This document shows, in pieces, positions 7,172 to 64,000 of a DNA stretch of 64,000 nt. The DNA is taken from positions 18,858 to 82,857 of the forward strand of contig CAWJYV010000006.1 of NCBI GenBank assembly GCA_963847185.1, written 5' to 3'. Position 1 is the first letter of the stretch; each line of letters opens with the position of its first letter. A program made the translations under genes and the position numbers. This DNA comes from an uncultured Methanosarcinaceae archaeon (lineage in GTDB: Archaea; Halobacteriota; Methanosarcinia; Methanosarcinales; Methanosarcinaceae). A model generated the notes under the pieces. The model was not told the DNA's origin, searched no databases, and saw nothing but the letters and a program-made list of their open reading frames with translations.

Positions 7172-7237
7172 AAAATTCTCTCAACGCCCGAATGCTCTTG
7201 AAGTGAGCAGATATCGGGCGGCTACCAACAAAAAAAA
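7172..7237 (+). repeat. REP-like palindromic repeat, copy 2
   Basis: CGCCCGAATGCTCTTGAAGTGAGCAGATATCGGGCGG followed by an A-run. Confidence 0.8.
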
Positions 7238-7360
7238 GCAAAAATGTATTGCAGGACAATATTAAATTGAAGAAAAACAATATCAAATTGATATAGAAAA
7301 ACAAAAATGAAATTCACAACTGATTCAATTTCGGTATCAAAAAAAGCATTGGAGAGATCT

Positions 7361-7606
7361 ATGAACTGGAGAGAACATATCGTTATCGACCCCGCAGTCC
7401 TTACAGGCAAGCCTATTATCAAAGGTACACGCCTTGCAGTAGAGTTCATTATCGACCTGCTTGCTCATGACTGGATTGAGGCGGAGATCCTCCGGAACTA
7501 TCCCGGCCTGACTCATGAGGATATTCAAGCGTGTCTGATGTATGCGAGCGATTTACTCAGGACAGAAAAGGTTTATTCTGTAGAGATTTCTCAGGAAGTA
7601 GACTGA
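7361..7606 (+). CDS. DUF433 family protein (putative antitoxin)
   Basis: IVIDPAVLTGKPIIKGTRLAVEFI...YPGLTHEDIQACL; GGAG upstream of the ATG at 7361. Confidence 0.9.
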   Translation: MNWREHIVIDPAVLTGKPIIKGTRLAVEFIIDLLAHDWIEAEILRNYPGLTHEDIQACLMYASDLLRTEKVYSVEISQEVD

Positions 7607-7965
7607 TGCGCTTGCTGGCAAATGAAAATATTCCTCTGAGTGCGATGGGGACTCTCCGGGACTGTGGATATGATGTCCTGTGGATAAGAGAAAAATCACC
7701 AGGTATCACTGATATTGAAGTCATGGAACTGGGTCATAGAGAAAAACGTATTCTTGTTACTTTCGACAAAGACTTCGGAGAGCTGGCTTTTTCCACAAAG
7801 CAACCATCAGCAAATGGAATAATTCTTTTTCGCATACCTATGATTTCTTCAGCTTACATAACGAAAGCCCTTGTAAAAGTTATAGAGTCGCGTGACGATT
7901 GGGAAAGACATTTTTCAGTTGTTGAAGAGGATAGAATTAGAATAAGGCCATTGAAAAGAGATTAA
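7606..7965 (+). CDS. DUF5615 PIN-like protein (putative toxin)
   Basis: MRLLANENIP...RILVTFDKDFGEL; TGATG coupling with the DUF433 gene. Confidence 0.9.
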   Translation: MRLLANENIPLSAMGTLRDCGYDVLWIREKSPGITDIEVMELGHREKRILVTFDKDFGELAFSTKQPSANGIILFRIPMISSAYITKALVKVIESRDDWERHFSVVEEDRIRIRPLKRD

Positions 7966-10145: not shown

Positions 10146-10894
10146 CTATATCAGCGAATTCTCAGTATTCCAAACACTCTGATTTTTATTAAGAACGTTA
10201 TGCCCAATTGGAGTCAATTCGAAACCATCCCAACGTATCCAAATCTGCAGGTTCACCAGGAAAATTATAATCCATCGTTTTATATTTATACTCAATAAGA
10301 CCCAAGTTAAAAACTGATTGAAATTGATGATCAGTGTAGCCCCTTTCGTACAAGTCCTCAAACAAACCATCAAAACAATCATCTGGACAAGCTTGTGATG
10401 AAAGAAAAGAAAGTAAATCAGTTATTTGTGATGCTTCAGCAAAAATGCCATGTTTTATCAATCCTTTAACTCCACCGATCTCCGTAAAGCTAATAGATGA
10501 AGCTCCTATGAGATCTAGTAGTTCACTAGCTAACACCATAATCCGTATACAAATTATTTTATTAATTTTACTACCATCGTGAGCTGCGTAATTTCTGTAA
10601 TACCCAAATGCACCTTTAAATAATAATTCTGCTTTGTCCTTGGAGTTCATCTCCTAAAGGAATTGTTAACTTTATACCATCTTTCGATCCTAAAAGTGTC
10701 TCGACTAATCTTGTACCAAACAATTTTTCGCCAGTTCTAGATTTCTCTTTAAGTGCAAGTTCTACTTGTTTCATCGATTCTAATGCAGCACAGGTAAAAT
10801 AACCATCTTTGTAAAGAGACATGCATTTATCAATAATTCTTTGATGAAGTATAGTATCTAATTCAAATTCTACCGTCATTACTTCGCCTACCAT
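10146..10894 (-). pseudogene. TIGR02391/Ymh-like HEPN protein, two frameshifts
   Basis: AALESMKQVE...FGTRLV in one frame, LFKGAFGYYRNYAAH in the next, C-terminal GFELTPIG in a third segment. Confidence 0.75.
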
Positions 10895-11005
10895 TGAATA
10901 TTTCTTAATATCAGTTATTTCAACTAGATGTTTAAACTTATTTTATTGATGAACATATTCAATTCCCTCAAATCTGCAGGAAATAAAAGGTTCAAAAAAG
11001 ATGAG

Positions 11006-12029
11006 TTATAGAGAAAGATCAAACATAAGAATTGTAAAAAATATCTCTCGACTTTTATCTGCAGGATGACTGCAGATAAATCTAAAGGCATTTTTCACAT
11101 CGGCTTTGTATTCTTTGTCAATAGACAGTTTCAGCTTTCTTCCCTGGAAAAAAGAAGTAACAATATCGGGAATACCTTGCAATGACGATAAAAATTCTCT
11201 ATTTTTATAAAAAACGATAAGTGCAACTCTGTTATCTCGCCATGTTAAGTAAGAAAGCAATTGAGCAATTGCCTCCTGTAATGACTTTTTTCCTCTCCAG
11301 ATTTTACACTCAGCTATAAAAATCGTTTCATTCACAGAAGATACTAAAATATCTGTTTTTCCTATTTTATTAAACGATTCTCCGGATGAGAAGATGTCTT
11401 TGTGCGAATTTAAACTCGCAAGCAAGACGTCTCTTAATTCTGGCTCACTTCTATCTTTATGTGAAAGAACTCGCCTTTCCATATCATTTCCTGCACGGGA
11501 AATTATTTCTAAAATTTTCTCATAAATTTGGTCTGATGTTTGGGGTTTTTTATCTTCCGTCAGGCTTTTGTGTGAATCTTTCAAAGAATTTTCTTTCGTG
11601 TATTTTCTTATATTGTGCATAGGCATTTGTGTTCATTTTAACAGAGGTTATAAAAATTAGATCATCATCACTCAGTGGATACTCTCTTTCACCATTTATG
11701 ATAAATAAATTTTCAATTTCAGTTAGAAAATCAGATATCAGTGGATACTTCTCATATTCCCATTCGTCGTCAAAAGTAATTTCATCGAATACTAAAAGGT
11801 TCGAATATGGTTTCCACTCATGAGCTTTTAATTGCTCACAACCAGGTTTTTCGAGCGTTTCTGAAATTTTAGCACATATTCTCAAGTAATTTCTATTAAT
11901 CTCTTCATGAATGACCAATATATCCTCACTAAAAAATATAGTAAGGAGTCTACTGAGTTCGTTATAATAGGTTCGAACCATAAATAAATTTCTTAGACTT
12001 TCTTCTCTCATAAATCTCGCTAACAACAT
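11006..12029 (-). pseudogene. PD-(D/E)xK nuclease-like domain protein split by a frameshift
   Basis: Overlapping ORFs 11550-12029 and 11006-11626; GESFNKIGKTDIL...IFIAECKIW...QLLSYLTWRD. Confidence 0.65.
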
Positions 12030-13421: not shown

Positions 13422-13816
13422 CGGGATTTAACAATTTATAAAAGAAGAGATTTTTTATTATTTCCTTATTATTTTCTTGTTTTCGATTTTTTTCAATCTC
13501 ACATTGAACAATTAAAGAAATACATAGGTTTCAGGGTAAAACCTGTGCATTTTCTCGGTTTTTACTTCAAATTTTAAGGTAATACGACCTCAAAACTCTT
13601 ACAAACAGAGGTTTTACTTTAACCTGTATATTCAATGGAATCATAAACTACTGGATTCATAGCTCGATCATAAATAGAGAGTATGTTAAAATCAGACTTG
13701 CGATAGTCTCCTGGAGAAGTTACAGAAATAAAATCATAACTTGGGGATGAGAATCTATCCCATCCCCATTTCAGTGTAGATAACACAATAGTTTCGATGA
13801 CGAAAAAAAATGTTTT

Positions 13817-14701
13817 TTAGGCGTAAGGGTCCCTTAACGCCTTATTAACGCCGAAATTCCTGCGCTCCTCGACCGTCTTCCTGTTCTTGTCGATCTTCTC
13901 CTTCGCGAGTTTCATAACAAGCTCGAGGCCAGGCTTTACCTCCTCGATAGGCTTTGTCTCGAACATGCCCGCAGCGACCGCCTTGGACCATATGTCATTC
14001 CCTACCTTAGTACGGATGAATACCGTGGACCAGCCATCAGGGCTTCCAACCGACCCTGTAGAGATGTCGCCAAGATTGGAAACGTAGTCGAGGCAGACAT
14101 GGCAGCCAGGCTGCTCGTACTTGTGTGTCGCCTTGAGCGGCACGGTGGATACGTTCCCTCGCTCGGTGTAGACCCAGAATTTGCCCTTCCCGATCTCCAT
14201 CTTCTTTACGGAGCTGAGGCTCTGGTTCGCGTGGTCCTCAACAATGGTCTGCATGGACTTGTACGGGAAGTTTTCCATGCAGAAGAGCCCTACTGCGAAG
14301 GCGATCTTGTCCGGGACATCCCGCATGTTGATGGGATAAAGCTGAACCTTCCTGACCGCCTGCATCTGGCAGCAGACACCGGTGACCCCTACCTTATCGA
14401 GGCCGAAGGACCGGGTTGCTTCCTTGAGCCAGGATATCTGGGGACTGATGCTGTACTTAGTCCCTTGTGCCTTGAGGATGTCCTCGCGGCTCATCGCGAC
14501 GAGCGGTTTTGGCTCCCAGGGCCGGTCGCCTTTGCCTGCCACAATGGTTCCATCAATAATCCCCTGCTCGAGGGCATAGACCATGAGGGTGGTGGCGATG
14601 CCGCCATCCTGTGCTTTCTGGAGGATTTCCTTGTCCGTGCTCCGTGCCGAGACGCACGTCATGTATTTGCCGAGATATGGATCTTCAACCATCTCTCTCA
14701 C
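13817..14701 (-). CDS. frhB: F420-reducing hydrogenase subunit beta
   Basis: AQDGGIAT, GVCCQ, GLFCMENF, GCHVCLDY, STGSVGSPDGWS. Confidence 0.96.
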   Translation of the reverse strand: MREMVEDPYLGKYMTCVSARSTDKEILQKAQDGGIATTLMVYALEQGIIDGTIVAGKGDRPWEPKPLVAMSREDILKAQGTKYSISPQISWLKEATRSFGLDKVGVTGVCCQMQAVRKVQLYPINMRDVPDKIAFAVGLFCMENFPYKSMQTIVEDHANQSLSSVKKMEIGKGKFWVYTERGNVSTVPLKATHKYEQPGCHVCLDYVSNLGDISTGSVGSPDGWSTVFIRTKVGNDIWSKAVAAGMFETKPIEEVKPGLELVMKLAKEKIDKNRKTVEERRNFGVNKALRDPYA

Positions 14702-14702
14702 C

Positions 14703-15510
14703 TCACTTAAGCGCTTCAGCGATTATTTCGTTGATGCTCTCAAATTCAGGAATCACGTCAAAGTTGAAGAACGACCTCGGGCAGGCGCCGTAGCAGGAGC
14801 CGCACTTAATGCAGAGATCACGCTCGACCCTGCGGCTTCCCGAACTCGTGGGTGATCGCTCGCACGGGGCAGGATGCAGCGCAGGTGCCACATCCCATGC
14901 AAAGGCCCTGGTTGATCACGTCGTTCATCAGGTCGCAGAAGCATGCGGTCGTGCCGCGCTTCGCAAGGGCCATAAGGGGCTTTAAGTACTTTCCCGCAAG
15001 AGCTTTTTGTTCCTCGTTCCCCTCCAGGAGCAGGTATGCCATGACAGCGACGTTCCTTATGAGCTCCGGGCTCGGGGGGCATCCGGGGATGTAGACATCC
15101 ACGTCGATGAGATCTCCGATGGGGAGGAAAGATTCGTGCTGGGGCTGGTTGTGCTGCCCCCCACGGCAGAATCTGGTGATGTTCCCGTAGCTTGCGCAGG
15201 AGCCGAGGGCCACCACAACCTTGGCCTTCTTCCGCGTCTCCTTGATCTCCTCCACAGATTCATGGTCCTGGATGCAGACTGATCCCTCGACTAGCGCCAC
15301 GTCCATCTCTGGGATATGTCGGACGTCGACGAGCGTGAGGCTGTAGACGAGGTCGGCATAGTTGTCCAGGATTTTGATGAATCCCAAATAGTTGTCGGCC
15401 ACGGACACGAGGCAGCCGGTACAGCCGCTCAGGTGTACATGCCCGAGCTTGATCTTGTTTGCCACTGGTTTTATCTCCTTTGTAGCTTCCACGTTCTTAA
15501 GCAGTCCCAT
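14703..15510 (-). pseudogene. frhG: F420-reducing hydrogenase subunit gamma, +1 frameshift near 14827
   Basis: SGCTGC, GSCA, PGCPP and CMGCGTCAASCP in frame 1; RDLCIKCGSCYGACPR in the shifted frame. Confidence 0.9.
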
Positions 15511-51065: not shown

Positions 51066-52268
51066 ATGCTATACAGACAAATACCTAAAAACAGAGACAA
51101 ACTTTCTATACTTGGGTTCGGATGCATGCGCCTCCCAGTGAAAGAAGATGGTAGTATAAATGAAGAAAGAGCTACTAAGCAGGTACGCTATGCAATCGAC
51201 CACGGAGTGAACTATGTTGATACGGCCTGGCCCTATCACATGGGGCAGAGCGAGCCCTTTTTAGGCCGTGCTCTTGCTGACGGATACCGCGAGAAAGTAA
51301 AAATCGCAACAAAACTTCCTTCGTGGCTTATAGAGAGCCGGGAGGATATGGATAAGTTTCTGAATTCCCAGCTGGAGAAACTCAAAACAGACCACATCGA
51401 TTATTATCTGATCCATGGCCTCTCAGGAGAACTCTGGGATAAAATGGAATCTCTTGGTGTAATAGACTTCATTGAGAAAGCAAAAAGTGATGGGAGAATT
51501 GTCAATGCAGGCTTTTCTTTCCATGGATCAGGTGACGATTTTAAGCGGATTGTAGACGCATATCCCTGGATTTTCTGTCAAATACAGTACAATTTCATGG
51601 ACGAAGATCATCAGGCAGGAACTGAGGGACTTAAATATGCAGCTTCCAAGAACCTGGGTGTAATTATTATGGAACCTCTACTTGGAGGCAATCTTGCCAA
51701 TCCGGTACCTTCTGAGGTAGAAAAGCTCTGGAACGAAGCTGCAACGAAACGTACACCTGCAGAATGGGCCCTTCGCTGGGTATGGAACCATCCGGAAGTT
51801 ACAGTCGTGCTTTCAGGCATGAACGAAGAATCCCATATAGAGGAAAACCTGAAAATAGCAGATGAAGCTTACCCCAATTCCCTGACAGAAGCCGAGGTAC
51901 AGCTTGTTAATAGAGTTGAGCAAAAGTACAACCAGCTTATGAAGATTGGTTGTACGGGCTGTCAGTATTGCATGCCCTGCCCTTCAGGAGTTAACATCCC
52001 TGAGTGCTTCAGTATTTACAATAACCTGCATATGTTCGGTAACGCAGATGGGGCCAAATTCACGTACGCTATAAGGATGAGCGGCGTATTTACAAATACC
52101 GAACCCGGAGGATTTGCTTCCCAGTGCATTGAATGCGGACAATGCACAGATATATGTCCCCAGAGTTTGAAAATACCTGATTTGCTTAAAGCTGTTGTAG
52201 AGGAGCTGGAGGGACCTGATCTGGAGAAAAGGATGGCTATGGCTAAACAACTTTTTACGAAAAAATGA
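51066..52268 (+). CDS. Aldo/keto reductase with C-terminal 4Fe-4S dicluster
   Basis: LGFGCMRLP, DTAWPYH, IATKLP, CTGCQYCMPCP, CIECGQCTDICPQ. Confidence 0.93.
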   Translation: MLYRQIPKNRDKLSILGFGCMRLPVKEDGSINEERATKQVRYAIDHGVNYVDTAWPYHMGQSEPFLGRALADGYREKVKIATKLPSWLIESREDMDKFLNSQLEKLKTDHIDYYLIHGLSGELWDKMESLGVIDFIEKAKSDGRIVNAGFSFHGSGDDFKRIVDAYPWIFCQIQYNFMDEDHQAGTEGLKYAASKNLGVIIMEPLLGGNLANPVPSEVEKLWNEAATKRTPAEWALRWVWNHPEVTVVLSGMNEESHIEENLKIADEAYPNSLTEAEVQLVNRVEQKYNQLMKIGCTGCQYCMPCPSGVNIPECFSIYNNLHMFGNADGAKFTYAIRMSGVFTNTEPGGFASQCIECGQCTDICPQSLKIPDLLKAVVEELEGPDLEKRMAMAKQLFTKK

Positions 52269-53263: not shown

Positions 53264-53920
53264 ATGTCAATAGCTGCAAAAAGGTCAGAAGTTACACAAT
53301 CGTCAATAGGATCATTCAGGCAGCAGCGTAGTAATTCAATTACAAGCTCCTTAAACAGGATTGCAAGTGACAGCAGATTTATTTCAAGTATGCAAAAATC
53401 TTCAAGTACGAATAGTAGAGCAAGCAGCATACAGACAAGTATAGGAAAAACAAATGCCTCAAAGGGTACTATAAGCATTAATAATAAACCTACTTCAAGA
53501 GCTGTTTCTACCCCTAAAGGAAAAGGGGATGTTTCAACAGTAAGCGGTAGGGTATCTCAAAGGGGTTATTCATCAGTTAACAAACTACCTGGAAGCACTA
53601 AACCTTCCATAATAGCCAGTAAGCCAAGTTCTACTAAAAGTACAAAATCCTCAGTAAGCCCTGGTAGTAAACATAGTACGAGCCCAAGTAGTAAGCCTAG
53701 TACTAGCCCAAGAACAAGCACTAAGATTTCACCTGAGTTTAAAGGTATTGAAAGCTCAGGCAGCTCTGGAAGATCTGGAAGCTCAAACAATTCTATGAGT
53801 TATCATAAGTACACAAACAAAAAGAAAACACCTCACATGGATACTAAAAAAGACAGCAGCACGAAAGTAAAAAGAGAGCAGGGGATCTTAAAGCTCACAG
53901 ATTACTTAAAAACGATTTGA
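53264..53920 (+). CDS. Ser/Lys/Thr-rich low-complexity basic protein
   Basis: 218-aa ORF with SPxSKxST repeats; hairpin and T-run downstream. Confidence 0.6.
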   Translation: MSIAAKRSEVTQSSIGSFRQQRSNSITSSLNRIASDSRFISSMQKSSSTNSRASSIQTSIGKTNASKGTISINNKPTSRAVSTPKGKGDVSTVSGRVSQRGYSSVNKLPGSTKPSIIASKPSSTKSTKSSVSPGSKHSTSPSSKPSTSPRTSTKISPEFKGIESSGSSGRSGSSNNSMSYHKYTNKKKTPHMDTKKDSSTKVKREQGILKLTDYLKTI

Positions 53921-56221: not shown

Positions 56222-56647
56222 ATGCCCACAAATATTGAAGAATTCTGGGGTAGCAATAGAACCTTACATTTACATCATCCTATACTGATAAATAAATTCG
56301 GGAATACAGCTTTTGTTTTCAAGGAAAAAGATACTGTATGCGCTTATCTGTTCGGGTTCTACTCCCAAACTCAGCCAGTAGCTTATGTGCATCTGATTGC
56401 CGTTAGAAATAATTACAGGATGCTTGGTCTCGGTCGAAGACTATATGACCATTTTATTGGATGTGCCAGGGAAAAGCATTGCTCAAAGGTAAAAACCATA
56501 ACAAAACCAACAAACCTTGAATCAATAATGTTTCATAAAAGCATGGGGATGGAATTGACCGGAAATGGTGCTATTAATGGAATACCGGTTGTTTTCGATT
56601 ACAGCGGGCCTGGAGAACATTGGGTTATTTTCATGAAAGATATTTGA
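56222..56647 (+). CDS. GNAT acetyltransferase
   Basis: AYVHLIAVR..YR.LGLGRRLY, N.ESIMFHKSMGM. Confidence 0.88.
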   Translation: MPTNIEEFWGSNRTLHLHHPILINKFGNTAFVFKEKDTVCAYLFGFYSQTQPVAYVHLIAVRNNYRMLGLGRRLYDHFIGCAREKHCSKVKTITKPTNLESIMFHKSMGMELTGNGAINGIPVVFDYSGPGEHWVIFMKDI

Positions 56648-56819
56648 GGGTTAGGCTGACACTTTTGCGAGTTTAGTATTATAATTTAAAAGTGGAAGAA
56701 TAAAAAAAGTAGCCTTTGTTTTCTATGTTTTATCCATCAATTTCAATCTGCTGCTTCGAACTTGCTGCGAAGATGGACTTTCTTTATAACCCTGTTTCTG
56801 GCTTCAGTGAGAAATAATC

Positions 56820-57704
56820 TTATTTTTCCACAAACATAATGTCAAGCAGGTCAGCTTTAAAAACTATTCTCCTGTTACGCTGTTCGATGAGGTCACTGAG
56901 CTGCAACTCAAGGTAGTTGTGGACAACTACGTTGTCGTTCTCATTTCTTGAGCCAGTTGAAACCGAAACTAACCAGTCCTTTAAATTCCCCTTGAAACCT
57001 TTATTCACATCCTTTAAGTAATCCGTGCATCGGCGGAATAATTTGGGGAGAATTAACTGGCCATCAGGGCCAATAGAATCCTGATCTTCCAGTACAAACT
57101 CAGTTGTCATATCTAATTCCCAGATACCTTTGTTGGCATCCCGAGCTTTTGAGGCTATTTTGTGCAGAAGCTTACGATGAATGAAAGGAGTGGAAGTATA
57201 TACTGTGTAGTAGGCTATACCTTCTTCAAGCAAACAATAGTTTATCGTTTTTTCCAGCAAAGCACGATCAACCTTAACCCAATCCCCTTCCTCAAAAAGG
57301 GCTGCATCGTTTTCCAATATTACGTAAGAAATAGGACGTCCATTTGCTTCTGCCGCCTTCGAGAGAATAGCCCCACGCACTATTTCAGGCTCACAGGACT
57401 TCACCTTCTCCGGATCTTTTGGGTAATACTGGATATTCTTAAAACCCATCAATGTGAGGAGTTGATTGCGGGCTTTATCTCCAAATGACTGTGCTGCACT
57501 ACCATAATGGATCTCTGGAGCATCTACAGCTTCAAATCGCAGTTGAACACTCCCATCGCGCTTTGAAGGTTTGATGCGATATGATCCATGAAGATTTTGA
57601 TATAAATCCGGACTGTCTGCTACGAATCTGACCGAATCTCCATCTGGTTCATAGCTAGCGATAGTAAAACAACCTTTTATGACACAATAACATGGTGACG
57701 ACAT
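56820..57704 (-). CDS. Staphylococcal-nuclease (thermonuclease)-like protein, no signal peptide
   Basis: PDGDSVRF, LRFEAVDAPEIHY, NGRPISYV, LLEEGIA, ARDANKGIW. Confidence 0.8.
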   Translation of the reverse strand: MSSPCYCVIKGCFTIASYEPDGDSVRFVADSPDLYQNLHGSYRIKPSKRDGSVQLRFEAVDAPEIHYGSAAQSFGDKARNQLLTLMGFKNIQYYPKDPEKVKSCEPEIVRGAILSKAAEANGRPISYVILENDAALFEEGDWVKVDRALLEKTINYCLLEEGIAYYTVYTSTPFIHRKLLHKIASKARDANKGIWELDMTTEFVLEDQDSIGPDGQLILPKLFRRCTDYLKDVNKGFKGNLKDWLVSVSTGSRNENDNVVVHNYLELQLSDLIEQRNRRIVFKADLLDIMFVEK

Positions 57705-57780
57705 AACATTACCTCTTTTGTCGATTTATCTCTATATTTATCTAATATCTCGTCAATCTATTTCATTGGTATTCCCCCAA

Positions 57781-60570
57781 TTACACTGGCTTCTTCATAT
57801 AGGCCTCTGGATCGGCATACAAAACATAGGCTAGCCAGGTCGAGTTAGACGGATCTGCCTCTCTTACAGCCTCCCTGGCTATTCGAAAGGCCTGGGCGAT
57901 AGTTTTTCCTTCCTGGAGTAAGGACGTGTAAAAACTTTTGGCAAACTTCAATGCCAGCGAGTCCTGCACCTCCCACATAGCACCGGCAAAGGCCCCAGCA
58001 TTGGCTATTTTTATAAACCGATCGGCCCAGCCACCTAATCCAGTAAAGCTAAACCCCATTTGTGCTCCTTCGCATGCGTTAATGAAGATCAACGGTTTCG
58101 GTTGCTTAAAAGATGTTTGGATATCTGATGGTTTTAGAAGTTCTCCTGAGAGTTGTATAGCTGAGTTATTAGGGCTAGTTGTATTGAATCCACAATGAGA
58201 CGCAAAATGCAGTACAAAGAAACCTCCTTCCTTTACAAAGTCAAGTACCTGTTTTTTCTTATTGAAAGCGCCCAAACCTGTTATATCAGAGTTTAGATTA
58301 CTCAACTGCTCTATGAACTTAACTTCCTCATTGATTGCAGCTAGATCGATCTGAACAGGGGCTACAGGCCGTGCTGTACCTATTGGCAGTTCACCTTCAG
58401 GGGCTGGTCCTGCAAGCCATCGTGACAATTCAAACCTTAGACACCAAAAAGGATCATCCTCCCTTTCACCAGTGTTATCGTTGTCACGATAAGGTTTAAT
58501 CATTTCCCACGGGATCCATGGTTCATCTGAGGTGATGAGCACGGATTTTACATGATCTTTAAATCGCCAATACTCGTGCTGCAGTTCGCCAGGAATAAGT
58601 TCTCTCCATAATTCATTGCCAATGGCCGCCATCCGCTGCTCTGCATCATCTTCAATCTGACTTGCCATTTCGTTCAACTCATCATACCAATCCTTTATCA
58701 GGTTCTCTGGCGGTGCCTTTAACGACACCTGTCCGACTTTTTTAAAATGGTACTCACATTCATTATAAAGTTCAAAATCTAGAATTTTATTGCTACGGTC
58801 CAGAATTATGCGAATCTCCAAGTCTGGAGGGCAACAAACGGGCCCAGAAGTCAGTGGCAGAGCCCAGGAAGACTCGGGCTGTTTCACCTCTTCGTCGTTT
58901 ACAGTCTGATCTTCTATAACCGAAATGTTGCGACGTTCAGTGCCGATTCGCCGTCCGTATAGGTAAAAATCAACCCTAATCTGTTGTTCGCCCAGCTCTT
59001 CAGGGATAAGGAAAAAAACCAAATCAGAATCATTGTCTCTGTCTACTTGGAGAACTTTAGTGTTACTGCCCTCGATATCAAAGCCCTTAGCAAAAACTAC
59101 TATTTCTACCTCAGGTGGCTGGTCAGGCAAGCCCTTATCTTCTATGACAATACCTTTGGTATCTGGTTTAAGCGGCTTCTTCAAAAGTTCGACTAATAAA
59201 CTGAATTTTACGCCTAGGACTACCTTATCTGGACACTCGAGATTAGGGTAACGAGTGATTGTTTTAATCTCTTCAGGATTATTTTTGGGAGACGCTACTA
59301 ATTCTTCTGTGAATTCTCCTCTAGTGACAGGAATTCCTAACTTTTCTAGCTCCACTCTTCTACTAATAAACATCTCTGATTTTTCTAGTTCCATTTTACT
59401 AGTTAGAGGCGCTTCTAATTTTTCTGGAGTTCTCGCTTTAGTATGGCCTATAATGCCGAATATTTCATCAAATGTTGGTTCCCCGCGAGCAAGGGCTTCT
59501 TCCACTGATATTGCTCGCTGCATTGCCTTATTTAAGTTAGTGATCTTATCAATTTCTCTGGCTTCTTTAGGTATTATTTGTCTGACCTCTCCACGTGTTG
59601 GTACCACCATATTTTGAGCTTCATCAAATTCGGTCTTCATCACTTGAGCTACCCTTCTTCTATCCGCTTTGGTGAGGTCAGGTGAGGTCATAGCAGCCGC
59701 GATGCATGTTCTTAATAGAGTTTTTGACCGTTCCTCTTCTCCATTCATTAATGCACTTATGGCTTCATTAAAAGGTTCCGAGATGTTTGTGAGCCCATCC
59801 ATGTCATCCCTTTCCTCACGGCTCTCGATTCGAAACAGCATATAAGTGAATCCTGTTAACGGCTCGCTATCATCAGCGCTGGTCCCATAGCGGAGTCTGT
59901 CATTCATGACCCACAATCCATTTGTATCCAGTTCTTCTTCCTCAGCCAATATCGCAGCAATGTATCCAGCCTTTAGGCAGTTTGTACTGCCTCCTCCTTT
60001 TCCAACAAATGACTGATGTAAACCCAGATGCATATCTCCATTGCTCACACCGAGTAGCTCTTCGACCCCTTTAGCTATAGGTCCGGCAACATTAAGGGCA
60101 GTTGATAACTGTGGCACAACGAGTATACTTGAAAAATCTCCCATTACTTTGATAAATCTGTTAAGATAGTCTTCTCCTTGCATTGCCAGTATTCCGGCAG
60201 CAACTTCAACGGCTCCTCCGTTAAAGGGCATCAATGAAGTCATGGGGTGGTTTAATTGAATCACTTTATCCAGGTTGCTGGAATTTACATCTGAAAGATT
60301 CAATGAGCCTGCAACGTAGGGAAGACTTATCTCCTGATTTCCAAACTGGATGTGTATTATAGAGTGGACGACCGGATACAAGCTTTTAAACCATTCGCGG
60401 TCCTTAGCAAGACACATTTCACTGAGCCATAATCTGAAGTAATTCTTGCCGGCTTCCAGTGGTTCTGCACTATAAGTGGCATCCTTTACATGGCTAAAAT
60501 CAATCGGTATATACATATACTTCTTAGCGTTCCTGTTAAACAAACTGGTTATTGTGTCAATTAGAGGCAT
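57781..60570 (-). CDS. Multidomain protein with C-terminal CHAT (caspase-like) domain
   Basis: IPWEM, LHFASH, LIFINACE, GAMWEVQD..A..FA..FY, WLAYVLYADP; uncharacterised N-terminal and beta-rich middle domains. Confidence 0.9.
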   Translation of the reverse strand: MPLIDTITSLFNRNAKKYMYIPIDFSHVKDATYSAEPLEAGKNYFRLWLSEMCLAKDREWFKSLYPVVHSIIHIQFGNQEISLPYVAGSLNLSDVNSSNLDKVIQLNHPMTSLMPFNGGAVEVAAGILAMQGEDYLNRFIKVMGDFSSILVVPQLSTALNVAGPIAKGVEELLGVSNGDMHLGLHQSFVGKGGGSTNCLKAGYIAAILAEEEELDTNGLWVMNDRLRYGTSADDSEPLTGFTYMLFRIESREERDDMDGLTNISEPFNEAISALMNGEEERSKTLLRTCIAAAMTSPDLTKADRRRVAQVMKTEFDEAQNMVVPTRGEVRQIIPKEAREIDKITNLNKAMQRAISVEEALARGEPTFDEIFGIIGHTKARTPEKLEAPLTSKMELEKSEMFISRRVELEKLGIPVTRGEFTEELVASPKNNPEEIKTITRYPNLECPDKVVLGVKFSLLVELLKKPLKPDTKGIVIEDKGLPDQPPEVEIVVFAKGFDIEGSNTKVLQVDRDNDSDLVFFLIPEELGEQQIRVDFYLYGRRIGTERRNISVIEDQTVNDEEVKQPESSWALPLTSGPVCCPPDLEIRIILDRSNKILDFELYNECEYHFKKVGQVSLKAPPENLIKDWYDELNEMASQIEDDAEQRMAAIGNELWRELIPGELQHEYWRFKDHVKSVLITSDEPWIPWEMIKPYRDNDNTGEREDDPFWCLRFELSRWLAGPAPEGELPIGTARPVAPVQIDLAAINEEVKFIEQLSNLNSDITGLGAFNKKKQVLDFVKEGGFFVLHFASHCGFNTTSPNNSAIQLSGELLKPSDIQTSFKQPKPLIFINACEGAQMGFSFTGLGGWADRFIKIANAGAFAGAMWEVQDSLALKFAKSFYTSLLQEGKTIAQAFRIAREAVREADPSNSTWLAYVLYADPEAYMKKPV

Positions 60571-60689
60571 TCTTTTCCTCCTTTAGCTGAAGTTTTACTG
60601 GTTTTTCGATTTGCTATAATTAATCACTTTGTCCATCCAATCAAACTAATTATAACCCTTAATTCGCCTTTCAGGGCCTCACTTAATGT

Positions 60690-61140
60690 CTATCCTTGAT
60701 AAAGAGGCGTAAACACACCTCTTTTCCGGGCTTCAAAATCGACCTGCAAAATATAAGCTAACCATACAGAGTTAGGCTGCGCTACATTTCTTACCGCCTC
60801 TGGCTATTCGAAAGGTCTGGGTTATATTCTGGTTATCCTTCAAAAATGAAAAGAAAAACTCTTTGCAAAGTCCAGTGCCAGCACTTTTTGCACCTTCAAC
60901 CTGGAGCCAGCAAAGACCTCAATCTCGGATTTATTAACTGACCATCGGCTCAGTCCCCTAATCTGTGAAGCTAAACTCCAAACCTCAGTTTTGTCCCTTA
61001 ATAAGAATTGATGAAGATTAACGCTCCTGGTTTGTAAGAGAAATATTTGAATATCCTATGGTCTCATGTATCCGTCAAATAGTGGTATAGCTGGGTCATT
61101 AGAATCAGAGGGAATTCCTTAATTTCCTTCATGAGTCCAA
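60690..61140 (-). pseudogene. Decayed second CHAT-domain gene
   Basis: Colinear nucleotide similarity with 57790-58200, e.g. CTGGCTATTCGAAAGG.CTGGG; no open frame. Confidence 0.7.
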
Positions 61141-61221
61141 AAAAGAAATAAACTGCTGAGGCGCGGAAAATACGGAATAAAGAATATATTGGCACATTTT
61201 TTTAGTGCTTTCCATCCCGAG

Positions 61222-61390
61222 TTTCGCTTCGGGAGCACGAGGTCCGTTTCACTCGCTTCGCTCGCTCAAGCAGACTATTTTATGGTTTGGAGCCAGAATT
61301 TCGCTTCGGGAGCACGAGGTCCGTTTCACTCGCTTCGCTCGCTCAAGCAGACTATTTTATGGTTTAGAATCCAGAATTTCACTTCGTGAT
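61222..61390 (+). repeat. 77-78-bp tandem palindromic repeat, 2 copies plus a partial third
   Basis: TTTCGCTTCGGGAGCACGAGGTCCGTTTCACTCGCTTCGCTCGCTCAAGCAGACTATTTTATGGTTT at 61222 and 61299; degenerate relative near 34190-34245. Confidence 0.9.
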
Positions 61391-61774
61391 CACAGGAGAT
61401 CGAAGATTTTCTAGGAGTTGCGATGTAATCGCAACAGCACAAGGTCCTTTTTTTTCAGCACTTTCCATTTTTCGCGGTTCCGGAACTGGAAGTGGATTTT
61501 TCTGTGTCCTTGACAGTGAGAAAAACTTAATTCTTCTGGTGACTGAAGGTATTTGCCCTACAACCTGTAGAAAGTGCAAATATGTACATCAAAAATAGTT
61601 TCATCGAATCTGAGTGGTCACTGTTGAAATATCTGGGAACTTAACCAGGTATCTGCAATGTGAGATTTATTGCCTCACCAATTTTCCTGCGCTTGAGTCA
61701 ATCTGTCTGATTGTCATAGCAATGAGCAGAGCAATTGTTTTTCCCACACAGAGATATTTTTATTTGGTGGGTAT

Positions 61775-61950
61775 ATCCAAAGCCTGACAGCAGGATCTCC
61801 GAAAATCATGCAGTTCTGTACATCGCTGCGGACTATGAATGTATCAACCAGTCAGTTCAAAGTAATTTGCTTTCTTTAATCTTATATTAATCTTCCAGTT
61901 TTCATTCCAGGTAGGAAATTCTTTCATGTCTATTATTTCCAACTGAGAAA
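61775..61950 (-). pseudogene. C-terminal remnant of a C25/gingipain-like caspase-fold peptidase
   Basis: Minus strand reads ...RSDVQNCMIFGDPAVRL at ~61778-61830. Confidence 0.45.
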
Positions 61951-61973
61951 CACGGTAAGAGATTTAGAGCCTA

Positions 61974-62801
61974 TTAGTATTGGGAGTTTCTCGTGGTAGC
62001 TTTTGTCTCTAGCTGGGGTGTCTGAGAGTATTTACCCTTTTTGAGATCAGTCCTCACTCTGGCAAGTAGTTCCTTACGGCTCAGCTTATCCTGGTTCTCG
62101 TTTATGTTCTTACACAGATAATATGTGAAGGCTCCGTGCCAAGTTCCATCTATTATGGCATCTGCGCTGGTTTGATCAGACCTGCATCCGGCCCAAAGTA
62201 TCTGCGAGCTCAGCCCCTTTTGTTTAAGCGATTCGGCCATTCCCCTGGGCATGCACTCGCTCACCTGTTCGAAGGCTTCCAGGGATGGTGGTGGTAGGAA
62301 TCTGGGTTTTCGATCAAGCAAGAAATCCATGGCTCTCAAACCTGTGCCACTGTGGCAAGTATCAAAGTAGCACTCCAAAAGCGCTGTCTTTGGGAGTTGG
62401 GTGAAAAGATTATAGAGTTCATCATCGGTGATAATGTGATCTGGGTCCCATATAGAGCCCTTCTGGGTCAGGTCAGTCGGGCAGAAAGCCTCATCTGCCT
62501 TATCTGGCTCATCCCCATTCTGGTCTGAAGTCTGAGTACCATGGCTTGAGAAGCTGAATACCAGATATTTGTATTTGCCCTCATTTGCCCCATTTACCAT
62601 TTCAATAAGATTTTCCATGATATTTTCCTTCGTAGCCTGTTCATCGACCAGCCTGACAATATCTTCATCTTCAAAACCCTTATATTTTTTTAAGATAGAT
62701 GTCATGTCTTCCGTGTCGTTTACACATATCCAGTTCAATTTGATTGAGGAAGATTCTGAAATTTGTTTATTCCAACACAAAGAGACTTTTTTGTCTGTCA
62801 T
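61974..62801 (-). CDS. Metacaspase (peptidase C14) with scrambled N-terminus
   Basis: FSFSSHGTQ, DEPDKADEAFCP.D, FDTCHSGT, GCRSDQTSADA, GAFT, QTPQL. Confidence 0.9.
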   Translation of the reverse strand: MTDKKVSLCWNKQISESSSIKLNWICVNDTEDMTSILKKYKGFEDEDIVRLVDEQATKENIMENLIEMVNGANEGKYKYLVFSFSSHGTQTSDQNGDEPDKADEAFCPTDLTQKGSIWDPDHIITDDELYNLFTQLPKTALLECYFDTCHSGTGLRAMDFLLDRKPRFLPPPSLEAFEQVSECMPRGMAESLKQKGLSSQILWAGCRSDQTSADAIIDGTWHGAFTYYLCKNINENQDKLSRKELLARVRTDLKKGKYSQTPQLETKATTRNSQY

Positions 62802-62861
62802 AAAATACCTCCTTTAATGTCTGTCAAGTGATGACTTAATCACCGTAATTTTAAAAAAATT

Positions 62862-64000
62862 AGGACTTACGCATTTGCCTGCTTTGCAGGCAACTTTTTA
62901 ATTTTCTTAATTTTTAATCCAAATTATATATTGGGTTTCTTATAAATTGATTAACAGCGTTTCTTGTAATGTTCCACTTTGTTTCAAACCATGTAATTCC
63001 TGTTTTTATTCTTTGCATTTCAAATCTTAGAAATGCTCTTATCGTCATCATAATGTGTGCTCTCTGTACACTATTTCTTCTTGCCTGACAGCGTTCAACT
63101 CCACAAAACTGCTTTATTCCTCTATGATACTCTTCAATTTTCCAGGCTTTCTTTGCCAGGTCTTTCCTTTTTTCTTCCTTCATATCCAGTACATCTGTAG
63201 CCCAGTATTGCGTGTCTCCATCTTCGGAAACTATCCGAAATACTTTAATAAAGCCATATTCTTTCAGATGAACCGTCATTCCTTCTGGTGGAATAGTTAA
63301 CAATTCAATTGCTACATTACCAGTCTTATCAGGGTTAACTAATCGGTTTTTCTTCAACCTTGTTAACCAGTGCCATCCTTTTTTCCTGATTTCTTTGAGA
63401 TTCTTTATGCTGGAATACCACGTATCAAACAGAACAAATTCAGGTCTAAAACCACGTTCTTCTGCCTTATTCAACATATCAAGGAAATGATCATTTTTTG
63501 TTTTTCCATCAGTATCTATATCGTAAATTCTAAAGTCAACAGGGATTATAGCGTCATTATAGGTCCAGACAACGGTTTCAAGATTGATGCCATTTACAAT
63601 CTGATGATGTTTACCACTCCATTGTCTGTAAACAAGATCAATGTGTTTGGAATAAGGTTTATCCAGAACAGTATCATCGATAATAAGAAATCCAGTGTAA
63701 GGAGTGACAAAATCCTTTACTTCTTCCCATAAAGCCTCCGTATCCGGAGGCTGCCTTAGAAGAAGACGAGTAAAAGAGTCATGAGCTGGACTATTAGAGT
63801 CTATATAACTGCACTTAGAAGCTTCGGTACAGCTAAATACGCGTGAAGAAGCGATAAGAAAGTTGATGTAATCAAGTTCAGTGCATTTAGGAGGATTTAT
63901 TTAATTCAACTCAGAGATTTTTTTTTGATTATATTTATATAATATATTAAAAAAAGTATTTTAATGTGACTTACGAAAAGTGCTTCAACCGCGTAAGTCC
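62862..64000 (-). mobile_element. IS701-family insertion sequence (far end at the window edge)
   Basis: TIR AGGACTTACGCA / CGCGTAAGTCC flanking a DDE transposase. Confidence 0.88.
62914..63900 (-). CDS. IS701-family transposase; frame open to 63900 but begins with ATA
   Basis: (I)NPPKC...IIDDTVLDKPY...VLFDTWY...WKIEEYHRGIKQFCGVERCQAR; 328 codons with no internal stop. Confidence 0.85.
   Translation of the reverse strand: MNPPKCTELDYINFLIASSRVFSCTEASKCSYIDSNSPAHDSFTRLLLRQPPDTEALWEEVKDFVTPYTGFLIIDDTVLDKPYSKHIDLVYRQWSGKHHQIVNGINLETVVWTYNDAIIPVDFRIYDIDTDGKTKNDHFLDMLNKAEERGFRPEFVLFDTWYSSIKNLKEIRKKGWHWLTRLKKNRLVNPDKTGNVAIELLTIPPEGMTVHLKEYGFIKVFRIVSEDGDTQYWATDVLDMKEEKRKDLAKKAWKIEEYHRGIKQFCGVERCQARRNSVQRAHIMMTIRAFLRFEMQRIKTGITWFETKWNITRNAVNQFIRNPIYNLD

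What the first reader, a model, noticed from the sequence alone, without database searches (positions are those of the whole stretch)
56820..62801. Caspase-fold protease cluster ending in a nuclease: candidate archaeal proteolysis-triggered defence or cell-death system
Seen: five co-oriented minus-strand units in order: metacaspase (H/C dyad SHG, DTC), a remnant ending GDPAVRL, a decayed CHAT gene, an intact 929-aa CHAT protein (HFASH, NAC) and, 76 bp later, an SNase-like nuclease with no signal peptide. Known: C14 caspases, CHAT and C25 peptidases share the caspase-haemoglobinase fold, and caspase-like/CHAT proteases activate effectors in bacterial gasdermin and type III-E CRISPR systems. Inference: an ancestral 3-4-protease cascade with a cytoplasmic nuclease effector. 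I do not recognise this combination as a named system.
Basis: partly seen in the sequence, partly recalled or inferred. Interest (0 to 1): 0.85.

Follow-up and report, generated by a model that had tools for sequence, protein, structure and literature searches.

The report
Unnamed protease-partnered domain fused to CHAT
The conserved heart of this archaeal gene cluster is not the nuclease but an unannotated 370-residue domain that across microbes almost always sits beside or fused to a protease, which makes it a candidate new protease-controlled cell-death effector.

Summary
The genes are real. On the minus strand lie a C14 metacaspase, a decayed 3' fragment of a CHAT gene, an intact 929-aa CHAT protein and, 76 bp later, a cytoplasmic SNase-family nuclease. 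The "GDPAVRL remnant" has no homology support. The whole 6.4-kb block is duplicated in this Methanosarcina genome and is syntenic in one related MAG.

The proposed protease cascade ending in a nuclease effector is not supported. Of 79 other genomes with this nuclease family, none has the CHAT protein's N-terminal domain nearby, and one has a non-adjacent CHAT-like ORF. The metacaspase occurs alone in other Methanosarcina. In the duplicate copy the nuclease is already broken.

What is conserved is the first ~370 residues of the CHAT protein (NTD). This family has 1,209 representative clusters, every named member seen is "hypothetical", and it matches no Pfam, PADLOC or PDB sequence. In 11 of 15 stand-alone loci an intact protease gene lies adjacent or two genes away. 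All 12 long fused forms carry a protease domain. The proteases span CHAT, C14, C25-like, C1, S8 and trypsin-like families.

I infer a protease-controlled, probably membrane-acting effector. It is gasdermin-like in logic but not in sequence or detectable fold. That mechanism is inferred, not shown.

The parts
56820..57704 (-). SNase-family nuclease, 294 aa, no signal peptide. A lineage-specific neighbour, not a conserved partner of the module.
   Evidence: Pfam SNase E 1.1e-8, residues 55-196. 878 homologues, 57-98% identical among the best 120, with a conserved C-terminal extension ending FVEK. Unlinked to NTD or CHAT in 79 other genomes.
57705..57780 (-). 76-bp spacer between the CHAT stop and the SNase start. 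No oligo-T run; AAGAGGT lies 7 nt before the ATG.
   Evidence: Sequence read. A T-run (TTTTTTTATTCTT) follows the SNase stop at about 56700.
57784..58545 (-). CHAT protease domain of the 929-aa protein (residues 676-929). Catalytic His792 is at 58195-58197 and Cys833 at 58072-58074.
   Evidence: Pfam CHAT 54.1 bits. Dyad conserved in 10 relatives. Foldseek hits to TPR-CHAT/Csx29 (E 1.6e-9), SAVED-CHAT and separase.
58552..59265 (-). Middle region (residues 436-673): beta-sandwich (Ig/macroglobulin-like) domains plus three helices. Candidate sensor or regulatory part.
   Evidence: AF2 secondary structure and pLDDT. Foldseek hits to complement C3/C5 chains at E about 1e-5. Weak Pfam DUF7363. Highest dS of the gene.
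59272..59448 (-). Predicted disordered linker (residues 375-433) between the NTD and the protease half. Candidate processing region.
   Evidence: pLDDT 27-33. The wider stretch of codons 323-440 has the highest dN/dS of the gene, 0.38-0.55.
59455..60570 (-). NTD (residues 1-372): the unnamed protease-partnered domain. Core is residues 1-322, a floppy loop spans 323-345, and short C-terminal helices span 346-371.
   Evidence: 1,209 representative clusters. No Pfam, PADLOC or PDB sequence match. AF2 pLDDT 87, pTM 0.85. Family hydrophobic maximum at residues 115-170.
60693..61154 (-). Decayed 3' fragment of an older CHAT gene. The His-motif region and C-terminus are recognisable; stops and frameshifts are present.
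   Evidence: tblastn E 1e-10 and 1.2e-17. The segment 60654-61467 has no counterpart in the orthologous MAG. Analogous CHAT remnants sit upstream of stand-alone NTD genes in G016 and L107.
61201..61451 (.). Array of about 77-nt repeats belonging to a genome-wide dispersed repeat family. It lies just 5' of the CHAT fragment.
   Evidence: more than 30 matching places on 8 contigs.
61468..61973 (-). Conserved non-coding stretch downstream of the metacaspase. Not shown to be a gene remnant.
   Evidence: Part of alignments that are 88.7% (MAG) and 95.5% (second copy) identical. No homology, no Rfam hit, fold z-score -0.09.
61974..62801 (-). C14 metacaspase, 275 aa, dyad intact. A neighbour whose link to the module is confined to this lineage.
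   Evidence: Pfam 85.9 bits. Found in 10 of 59 genomes of the genus. Five other loci show no CHAT or SNase match; two of them have TPR/Kae1 or purF-like/MatE neighbours.
62846..64000 (.). Copy of a multi-copy IS (DDE transposase fragment at 62914-63477, minus strand). It bounds the duplicated block and runs to the contig end.
   Evidence: Pfam DDE_Tnp_1. 12 further copies at 89-93% identity in the genome.

Best explanation
**Core unit.** The functional core is a two-part module: an unnamed ~370-residue domain (NTD) plus a caspase-fold protease. Here the two are fused in one 929-aa protein, in the order NTD, disordered linker, Ig-like middle, CHAT.

**Origin.** In relatives the parts are separate adjacent genes. 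The ancestral Methanosarcinaceae form was CHAT followed by NTD. The window's decayed CHAT fragment is the relic of that upstream gene. The present fusion joined the NTD to a second, faster-diverging protease half.

**Mechanism (inferred).** The NTD is the effector and the protease is its switch.
- A trigger sensed by the middle domain activates CHAT. In relatives the sensing role would fall to TPR-S, EAD8/nSTAND1 or MoxR-VMAP partners.
- CHAT cuts the floppy segment after the NTD core, at residues ~323-345 or 375-433.
- The freed core is a C2-like beta-sandwich with a buried, moderately hydrophobic helical hairpin. It then acts on the membrane and stops or kills the cell.

**Other genes.** The SNase nuclease and the metacaspase are lineage-specific neighbours in a variable, IS-flanked, duplicated island. 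They are not defining parts of the system.

**Shown versus inferred.** Shown: gene content, the protease association, the absence of nuclease linkage, and the fold prediction. Inferred: cleavage, toxicity, membrane action and a defence role.
For: **The NTD is a large unannotated family.**
- 1,209 representative clusters at E<=1e-3, mostly 350-375 aa.
- Every source name among the best 120 is 'hypothetical protein'.
- No Pfam family is shared by more than 1 of 47 members at E<=1. No PADLOC model hits any of the 47. No PDB sequence matches better than E 0.36. All 30 nearest ESM-Atlas clusters lack a Pfam family.

**It travels with proteases.**
- All 12 fused forms of 800 aa or more carry a protease domain: S8 twice, CHAT six times, C25-like three times, C14 once. 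Three of these hits are 1-2 bits under Pfam's cutoff.
- Of 15 stand-alone loci, 11 have an intact protease gene adjacent or two genes away:
  - CHAT: G030, G274.
  - C25-like: G024.
  - Nal1_C: L107.
  - TPR-S-trypsin: G171.
  - EAD8-trypsin: G1357, G1465, G1303.
  - CHAT-like with nSTAND1: G1046.
  - C1 peptidase: Sporomusa plasmid.
  - Caspase with MoxR-VMAP: Pseudanabaena plasmid.
  - Sources.
- One further locus, G016, has only a CHAT remnant.

**Partners that already carry sensor or adaptor domains argue that the NTD is not the sensor**.

**Structure.**
- The AF2 model is confident: pLDDT 87, pTM 0.85.
- Nothing in PDB matches at E<=1e-3; the best-probability rows are C2 membrane-binding domains.
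- Only Y44 and P115 are invariant in the family, so no conserved catalytic set is evident.
- The family's hydrophobic maximum lies in the helical-hairpin region.
- The layout is core, low-confidence loop, then short C-terminal helices. This mirrors the bGSDM cleavage loop plus inhibitory C-terminal peptide described in 10.1101/2021.06.07.447441 (passages read).

**Evolution.**
- The NTD is strongly constrained (dN/dS 0.05-0.11), while the protease half diverges 7-40 times faster at synonymous sites.
- This fits a constant effector with a swappable protease.
Against: - No experiment exists. Neither cleavage nor toxicity is shown.
- The hairpin is only moderately hydrophobic. The family mean in a 19-residue Kyte-Doolittle window is 1.1, and per-sequence maxima run 0.7-1.8.
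- The C2 resemblance is weak: E>1e-2 and TM-score about 0.4.
- Three of 15 stand-alone loci show no recognised protease: Sorangium, G607 (upstream ORF reaches the locus end) and the Prosthecochloris plasmid.
- The sample of 15 loci is small and was drawn unevenly; five are Methanosarcinaceae or near relatives.
- The nuclease does stay next to the fusion gene in all three loci that have the fusion, on the same strand, 76 bp apart, with no terminator-like T-run between them.
- One distant NTD-like gene on a Prosthecochloris plasmid also follows a small thermonuclease gene.
- The published view of EAD8-trypsin systems treats the peptidase itself as the effector (PMC10907252, passages).
Confidence: 0.5

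Rival explanations
1. The SNase nuclease is a pro-enzyme or otherwise latent effector, switched on by the upstream CHAT protease, with the metacaspase as a further tier. It would be an SNase-fold analogue of caspase-nuclease (Canu) and trypsin-MBL-nuclease pairs.
For: - Gene order is protease then nuclease, co-oriented, 76 bp apart, with no T-run between and a T-run after the nuclease.
- This order is kept in both copies in the genome and in the related MAG.
- The protease has Ig-like middle domains, as Canu caspases do (PMC12799240 passages).
- The nuclease is cytoplasmic, and its SNase motifs are conserved in the 26-sequence alignment.
- A small thermonuclease gene precedes a distant NTD-like gene on one plasmid.
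- A trypsin-Endonuclease_NS fusion lies 1.8 kb from the NTD gene in G030.
Against: - Of 79 other genomes with the nuclease family, none has the NTD within 8 kb. One has a non-adjacent CHAT-like ORF and none has the metacaspase.
- No neighbour family occurs in more than 10 of 80 loci. No Pfam family occurs in more than 4 of 122 flanking ORFs.
- Four of 5 nuclease-holding genomes lack the NTD altogether, and the fifth has it about 0.75 Mb away.
- In the 177 Methanosarcinaceae genomes searched, four of the 6 that hold the NTD lack the nuclease.
- In the second copy the nuclease is broken into three pieces while the CHAT gene stays open.
- The nuclease keeps the same length and extension where no protease is nearby, which argues against protease dependence.
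Confidence: 0.15
2. The NTD is not an effector. It is a sensor or regulatory domain that holds its protease inactive until it binds a trigger. The protease is then the effector and degrades cell proteins, as proposed for Borvo-type CHAT proteins, type IV Thoeris caspase-like proteases and the EAD-recruited peptidases.
For: - The published reading of EAD8-trypsin and VMAP systems calls the peptidase the effector (PMC7159879 and PMC10907252, passages).
- The NTD has no evident catalytic residues.
- It is physically fused N-terminal to proteases in all 12 long forms, a common place for regulatory domains.
- A beta-sandwich could be a binding module.
Against: - Many partners already carry dedicated sensor or adaptor modules: TPR-S, EAD8, nSTAND1, MoxR-VMAP.
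- One very conserved NTD (dN/dS 0.05-0.11) pairs with six unrelated protease families. That is easier to explain for a common substrate than for a regulator that must fit each fold.
- Sensors in conflict systems usually diversify. Here the protease half and middle domain diversify, not the NTD.
Confidence: 0.2
3. There is no system at all. The genes are unrelated passengers of a variable, IS-rich island, and their adjacency reflects insertion history only.
For: - The locus is IS-flanked, duplicated, decaying and mosaic.
- The orthologous place in the related MAG holds different content on the SNase side: an M4 peptidase there, versus a GNAT gene and a Ser-rich ORF here.
- The metacaspase and the nuclease each occur alone elsewhere.
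Against: The NTD-protease pairing recurs across archaea, five bacterial phyla and plasmids, with different protease families and as gene fusions. Insertion history cannot explain that. The fusion gene is under purifying selection, with dN/dS 0.21-0.29.
Confidence: 0.1

Closest known systems
Bacterial gasdermin plus caspase-like protease operons (Johnson et al.; preprint 10.1101/2021.06.07.447441, passages read)
   Same: - A non-enzymatic protein of about 250-370 aa is encoded next to, or fused with, proteases of varied families (C14, CHAT and others). Those proteases are often fused to TPR or NACHT-type sensors.
- 43 of 50 bGSDMs have an adjacent protease, against 11 of 15 stand-alone NTD loci here.
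- Both have a folded core, a floppy loop and a short C-terminal segment.
   Different: - No sequence match: Pfam, 0 of 47 members share a family; PADLOC, 0 of 47.
- No gasdermin among the listed Foldseek rows, and none at E<=1e-3.
- No N-terminal cysteine.
- The predicted fold is a C2-like beta-sandwich with an inserted helical hairpin.
- Pore formation is untested.
Caspase-nuclease (Canu) and trypsin-MBL pro-nuclease pairs (Tuck et al. 2025, PMC12799240; abstract and passages read)
   Same: A caspase-fold protease with Ig-like domains is followed by a downstream nuclease gene, near transposases.
   Different: - The nuclease here is SNase-fold, not MBL-fold.
- Its family is not linked to proteases elsewhere.
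- Gating insertions could not be examined.
- The protease carries the NTD, which is not mentioned in the passages I read.
NTP-dependent conflict systems with peptidase components: EAD8-trypsin, nSTAND1, TPR-S, MoxR-vWA-VMAP, Trypco1/2, NucA-trypsin (Kaur et al. 2020, PMC7159879; passages read)
   Same: - Bacterial NTD genes sit directly beside EAD8-Trypsin_2, TPR-S-Trypsin_2, nSTAND1 and MoxR-VMAP-caspase genes.
- The paper proposes proteolytic release of effectors and names small 'trypsin-co-occurring' partner domains.
   Different: - In the scan of 47 members at E<=1, no Pfam family was shared by more than one member and no Trypco name is in the list, so the NTD is not detectably Trypco1 or Trypco2. 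That Pfam holds models under those names is my recollection.
- The window's archaeal version lacks any NTPase, EAD or vWA partner.
CHAT proteases of type III CRISPR systems (Csx29/TPR-CHAT, SAVED-CHAT) and separase
   Same: Best structural matches of the C-terminal half, at E 1.6e-9 to 1e-6. Same His/Cys dyad.
   Different: No TPR or SAVED domain. I did not look for CRISPR arrays or cas genes in the window. The N-terminal partner domain is different.

Membership tests
CHAT peptidase (Pfam PF12770, clan CD) | Profile match above the curated cutoff | tested here: met
   54.1 bits against a cutoff of 24, residues 732-918.
CHAT peptidase (Pfam PF12770, clan CD) | Catalytic His and Cys in the conserved motifs | tested here: met
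   His792 (HFASH) and Cys833 (NAC) align with H and C in all 10 CHAT-bearing rows.
CHAT peptidase (Pfam PF12770, clan CD) | Caspase-haemoglobinase fold | tested here: met
   Foldseek probability 1.00 to TPR-CHAT/Csx29, SAVED-CHAT and separase. The model's pLDDT is mostly 70-94 across the domain (10-residue block means), with dips to 54-58.
Peptidase C14 (metacaspase) | Profile match above cutoff and His/Cys dyad | tested here: met
   85.9 bits against 21.4. SHG and DTCHSG are in the translation. Which residues form the dyad is recalled knowledge.
Staphylococcal nuclease (PF00565) | Profile match above cutoff | tested here: met
   35.9 bits against 21, residues 55-196.
Staphylococcal nuclease (PF00565) | Conserved metal-binding and catalytic motifs | tested here: inconclusive
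   In 26 sequences, D21, D23, R56, D61, E64 and R123 are invariant and DGDS, LRFE.(I/V)D.(P/T)E, NGRP and YYT.YTS are conserved. Mapping these onto SNase catalytic residues is from memory.
Gasdermin (bacterial) | Sequence or profile similarity to gasdermin | tested here: not met
   No Pfam family is shared by more than 1 of 47 NTD members at E<=1, and none of those listed is gasdermin. 0 of 47 hit any PADLOC model.
Gasdermin (bacterial) | Gasdermin fold | tested here: inconclusive
Gasdermin (bacterial) | Encoded next to an activating protease | tested here: met
   11 of 15 stand-alone loci and 12 of 12 long fusions.
Gasdermin (bacterial) | Cleavage-dependent pore formation | not testable with these tools
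   Needs expression, cleavage and membrane assays.
Canu / protease-gated pro-nuclease pairs | MBL-fold nuclease | tested here: not met
   The nuclease is SNase-fold by Pfam. Canu nucleases are MBL-type (PMC12799240, abstract and introduction).
Canu / protease-gated pro-nuclease pairs | Nuclease family recurrently linked to proteases | tested here: not met
   None of 79 other loci has the NTD, one has a non-adjacent CHAT-like ORF, and none has the metacaspase. No protease family appears among the recurrent flanking families.
Canu / protease-gated pro-nuclease pairs | Active-site-blocking disordered insertions in the nuclease | not tested
Borvo (BovA, PADLOC) | Match to the BovA model over its length | tested here: not met
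   E 1.9e-4, 18.6 bits. Only residues 783-906 match, against model positions 546-670 of 711, i.e. the shared CHAT core.

The most novel reading that the evidence does not exclude
The NTD family is a previously unrecognised class of protease-activated cell-death executioner. It would be unrelated in sequence and detectable fold to gasdermin. It would be used by archaea, at least five bacterial phyla and plasmids, with a structural look-alike in a giant virus. It would be the missing terminal effector downstream of the trypsin, caspase, CHAT and subtilase 'effector' peptidases of STAND, EAD and MoxR-vWA conflict systems.
Probability: 0.3. Interest if true: 0.85.

Novelty: new variant of a known kind. 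Interest (0 to 1): 0.6.

Why it matters
- **An open question becomes testable.** Protease-switched effectors (gasdermins, pro-nucleases) are a recent and central theme of prokaryotic immunity and of the origin of eukaryotic cell death. In many predicted peptidase-containing conflict systems the peptidase itself is assumed to be the killer, and its substrate is unknown. The NTD family is unannotated yet tied to six protease families, so it is a concrete candidate for that missing substrate or effector. Expressing the pair and mapping the cut would test this directly.
- **An example of module evolution.** In Methanosarcina the locus shows an upstream protease decaying, replacement proteases arriving downstream, a fusion forming, and the protease half diverging 7-40 times faster at synonymous sites than the effector half.
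- **A correction to the annotation.** The eye-catching nuclease and metacaspase are probably bystanders.

Tried and rejected
- **Structural homology of the NTD.** Foldseek against PDB gave nothing at E<=1e-3. The pdb_via_wide and pdb_via libraries were not on the machine. BFVD gave one hit, an uncharacterised Hokovirus protein, which says nothing about function.
- **ESM Atlas.** It holds no model of the NTD or of homologue P0126, so no structure search ran. All 30 feature neighbours lack Pfam families.
- **Pattern search of metagenome contigs.** The NTD alignment failed because it has no conserved stretch. The single-protein search found one locus, L107.
- **Whole-genome sampling for NTD loci.** The yield was low: 2 of 201 (class of Sorangium), 3 of 401 Actinomycetota, 1 of 401 Pseudomonadota and 3 of 401 Cyanobacteriota. 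Of the hits, G406 (unpublished) and the weak G736 fragment were not examined.
- **'GDPAVRL remnant'.** No homology, no Rfam family and no excess RNA structure. It stays unexplained.
- **Expression.** Only small-share runs hold parts of the stretch. Contigs of a metatranscriptome from a 90-95%-identical relative cover the 3' part of the SNase and the metacaspase but not the CHAT gene. These are contigs in an RNA library and do not show transcription or its absence, so I draw nothing from them.
- Supplementary tables of PMC7159879, PMC8195603, PMC12799240 and the gasdermin preprint could not be seen, and they may list the NTD family under another label.
- **Literature.** Six searches for a named NTD-like family found none. 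This is not proof that none is in print.
Full report
**1. What is there**

Window 56820-62801 carries five co-oriented minus-strand features.

| Feature | Coordinates | Size | Evidence |
|---|---|---|---|
| C14 metacaspase | 61974-62801 | 275 aa | Pfam 85.9 bits; SHG and DTC present |
| Non-coding stretch with the 'GDPAVRL' frame | 61468-61973 | 506 nt | no homology found |
| Array of ~77-nt dispersed repeats | 61201-61451 | 251 nt | |
| Decayed CHAT fragment | 60693-61154 | ~460 nt | tblastn E 1e-10 to 1.2e-17; stops and frameshifts |
| Intact CHAT protein | 57781-60570 | 929 aa | Pfam 54.1 bits; His792/Cys833 conserved |
| SNase-family ORF, 76 bp further on | 56820-57704 | 294 aa | Pfam 35.9 bits; no signal-like N-terminus |

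The 'GDPAVRL remnant' could not be confirmed as a gene relic. It has no homology, and the frame has a stop in the orthologue. There is no Rfam hit and no excess RNA structure.

PADLOC gives only a weak CHAT-core match to BovA and a generic caspase match. NCBIfam gives nothing above cutoff.

**2. Genomic setting**

- The window is G000:C6:18858-82857, in a 4.04-Mb genome of 10 contigs.
- The block 56436-62860 is duplicated at C1:328501-334840, at 89-95.5% identity. It is bounded at 62846 by an IS that has 12 further copies.
- In the second copy the nuclease is in three pieces with a stop codon, while the CHAT gene stays open.
- One related MAG, G009, named as an uncultured Methanosarcinales archaeon, is syntenic. 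Its order is metacaspase (94% identity), CHAT protein (76%), nuclease (80%), an M4 peptidase, then the aldo-keto-reductase-like gene, which is also in the window at 51066-52268.
- G009 has no counterpart of window 60654-61467, the stretch that holds the repeats and the decayed CHAT fragment.

**3. The nuclease is not a conserved partner**

- The nuclease belongs to a sharply conserved family. There are 878 hits, the best 120 are 57-98% identical, and the lengths are around 290-300 aa. A conserved C-terminal extension ends in FVEK.
- I fetched 80 genome loci, mostly Cyanobacteria, Actinomycetota, Deinococcales and Chloroflexota, with Sorangium and Rhizobium-group bacteria and one Nitrososphaeraceae archaeon.
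- An HMM of the CHAT protein's N-terminal domain hits 1 of the 80, the Methanosarcinales MAG itself.
- A local CHAT-domain HMM hits that MAG and one other locus, L064, where the ORF is 2.8 kb away and not adjacent. The metacaspase hits only the MAG.
- Neighbour clustering finds no family in more than 10 of 80 loci.
- A Pfam scan of 122 flanking ORFs finds no family in more than 4. Only 25 of 126 families were listed, and the unlisted ones have at most 2 members.
- Of 5 nuclease-holding genomes, 1 has the N-terminal domain, about 0.75 Mb away.
- Among 177 Methanosarcinaceae genomes, the full nuclease is in 2 (G000 and G009), with short fragments in G014 and G029. The N-terminal domain is in 6.

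**4. The metacaspase is also separable**

It occurs in 10 of 59 genomes of the genus. In five other loci of that genus, no CHAT or SNase match lies beside it. In G390 it is followed by a TPR protein and Kae1/Bud32. In G014 it lies between a purF-like gene and a MatE gene.

**5. The conserved thing is the N-terminal domain (NTD, residues 1-372)**

*Family size and annotation.*
- Searched alone against 1.84 billion representatives, the NTD finds 1,209 clusters at E<=1e-3 and 264 at E<=1e-30. Most are stand-alone proteins of 350-375 aa.
- Every source name among the best 120 in a second database is 'hypothetical protein'.
- No Pfam family is shared by more than 1 of 47 members at E<=1.
- No PADLOC model hits any of the 47, and no PDB sequence matches better than E 0.36.

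*Fused forms.* All 12 forms of 800 aa or more carry a protease domain.
- S8: P0138, P0279.
- CHAT: P0153, P0214, P0224, P0230, P0280, and P0281 at 22.6 bits against a cutoff of 24.
- C25-like: P0174 above cutoff; P0156 and P0196 about 1 bit under.
- C14: P0238.
- Sources.
- Shorter extended forms (434-638 aa) mostly show no known extra domain.

*Stand-alone loci.* I looked at 15.

| Locus | Neighbouring gene |
|---|---|
| G030, G274 | CHAT gene upstream |
| G024 | C25-like gene downstream |
| L107 | Nal1_C serine protease downstream, CHAT remnant upstream |
| G016 | CHAT remnant upstream only; chagasin-type inhibitor gene downstream |
| G171 | TPR-S-Trypsin_2 |
| G1357, G1465, G1303 | EAD8-Trypsin_2 |
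| G1046 | nSTAND1, with a CHAT-like gene two genes upstream |
| Sporomusa plasmid | C1 peptidase |
| Pseudanabaena plasmid | MoxR, VMAP-like gene, NTD-like gene, caspase |
| Sorangium | a 1,886-aa AAA_16 protein |
| G607 | upstream ORF reaches the locus end; no Pfam match |
| Prosthecochloris plasmid | a 122-aa thermonuclease and hypothetical genes |

That gives 11 of 15 with an intact protease gene, 1 with a remnant only, and 3 with none recognised.

**6. Structure**

*NTD alone.*
- With a 47-sequence alignment, AF2 gives pLDDT 87 and pTM 0.85.
- The model has a short N-terminal helix, a beta-sandwich, an inserted helical hairpin (residues 134-175, pLDDT about 72), more strands, and three helices (261-322).
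- A low-confidence loop follows (blocks 321-340, pLDDT 61-64), then short confident C-terminal helices.
- Foldseek finds nothing in PDB at E<=1e-3. The rows with the highest probability are C2 domains, at probability 0.75-0.77 and TM-score about 0.4 on the target.
- BFVD gives one hit, a Hokovirus protein at E 7e-8.
- Only Y44 and P115 are invariant in the family.
- The family's hydrophobic maximum lies at residues 115-170.

*Full-length protein.*
- The model has pLDDT 76.9 and pTM 0.49.
- Residues 375-433 are predicted disordered. Beta-sandwich domains span 436-616, helices span 621-673, and the CHAT domain follows.
- The C-terminal half matches Csx29/TPR-CHAT, SAVED-CHAT and separase. The middle matches complement C3/C5 chains, which I read as macroglobulin/Ig-like domains.

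**7. Evolution**

- Upstream of the stand-alone NTD genes in G016 and L107 lies a remnant of a CHAT 3' end. In G030 and G274 that CHAT gene is intact.
- The window shows the same picture: a CHAT 3' remnant immediately upstream of the NTD start.
- So the ancestral unit was CHAT followed by NTD. The upstream protease decayed repeatedly, and a replacement protease came in downstream: Nal1_C in L107, C25-like in G024, and a fused CHAT half in G000 and G009.
- Divergence is strikingly uneven between the two copies in the genome. dS is 0.024 in NTD codons and 0.65-0.93 in the middle and CHAT codons. Against G009 it is 0.13 versus 0.96-1.14.
- dN/dS is 0.05-0.11 for the NTD, about 0.2 for the protease half, and 0.38-0.55 for the linker.
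- This points to recombination or gene conversion, and to a constant NTD with a changeable protease half.

**8. Reading**

The pattern is one constrained, apparently non-enzymatic protein tied to six unrelated protease families. It is often found beside proteases that already carry sensor or adaptor domains.
- This matches the logic shown for bacterial gasdermins. There, 43 of 50 have an adjacent protease, and the cut falls in a floppy loop before a short inhibitory C-terminal peptide (10.1101/2021.06.07.447441, passages).
- It also matches the logic of protease-gated pro-nucleases (PMC12799240).
- I therefore read the NTD as the protease's substrate and effector, probably membrane-directed. 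Cleavage, toxicity and membrane action are inferences.

The alternatives are that the NTD is a regulator of an effector protease, or that in this lineage the SNase nuclease has been recruited as a second, Canu-like effector. Both remain open at lower odds.

In the text searches I ran and the passages I read, the family is not named. The papers read in passages were PMC7159879, PMC8195603, PMC10907252, PMC12799240 and the two preprints. Their supplements were closed.

**9. Verdict**

- The proposed cascade ending in a nuclease is not supported.
- The locus is a derived, duplicated and partly decaying copy of an NTD-protease module.
- Its NTD family is unannotated and worth testing.

Interest 0.6. 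Novelty: a new variant of a known kind, the protease-switched effector module.

Noticed in passing
window 61201-61451: Tandem ~77-nt repeats (90% alike) that belong to a dispersed family. More than 30 matching places lie on 8 contigs of the genome, and here they lie just 5' of the decayed CHAT fragment. Possibly a MITE-like element.
   Followed up: partly
window 62846-64000: Copy of an IS with a DDE_Tnp_1 transposase fragment (62914-63477, minus strand). There are 12 further copies at 89-93% identity. It coincides with the end of the duplicated block and with the contig end.
   Followed up: partly
window 56820-57704 and loci L027-L106: The 294-aa SNase-family protein is 57-66% identical across distant phyla and keeps an invariant C-terminal extension (...FVEK). 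It has no signal peptide and no conserved neighbour. Such a conserved cytoplasmic nuclease has no evident function.
   Followed up: partly
window 57781-60570 versus G000:C1:330633-333453 and G009:C46:3032-5902: Synonymous divergence differs 7- to 40-fold between the NTD codons and the protease half of the same gene. The second copy's protease half is nearer to the other genome's than to the window's. This suggests a mosaic from recombination or gene conversion.
   Followed up: partly
window 61468-61973: About 500 nt downstream of the metacaspase lie within alignments that are 88.7-95.5% identical in the second copy and in G009, although metacaspase dS against G009 is 0.45. There is no Rfam hit and no excess folding energy.
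   Followed up: partly
L021 (G030:C5) 2978-7653 and 13530-14912: Near the CHAT + NTD pair lie a 1,355-aa protein followed by a SUKH/SMI1 immunity-type gene, and a Trypsin_2-Endonuclease_NS fusion of the 'NucA-trypsin' type. The neighbourhood is rich in conflict genes.
   Followed up: no
L023 (G016:C15) 10621-11109: A chagasin-family (I42) cysteine-peptidase inhibitor gene lies directly downstream of a stand-alone NTD gene whose upstream CHAT has decayed. On a Sporomusa plasmid, a C1 peptidase precedes an NTD homologue.
   Followed up: no
BFVD entry A0A1V0SF49 (Hokovirus HKV1): An uncharacterised 323-aa giant-virus protein is the only significant structural match of the NTD model (Foldseek E 7.4e-8, TM-score 0.41-0.46).
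   Followed up: no
L107 1044-4511: A 1,155-aa protein with a C-terminal APOBEC-like deaminase domain lies 2.5 kb upstream of a stand-alone NTD gene in a metagenome contig.
   Followed up: no
window 53264-53920: A 218-aa ORF, extremely rich in serine, on the plus strand. It occupies the place where the related MAG has an M4 peptidase gene. Not examined.
   Followed up: no
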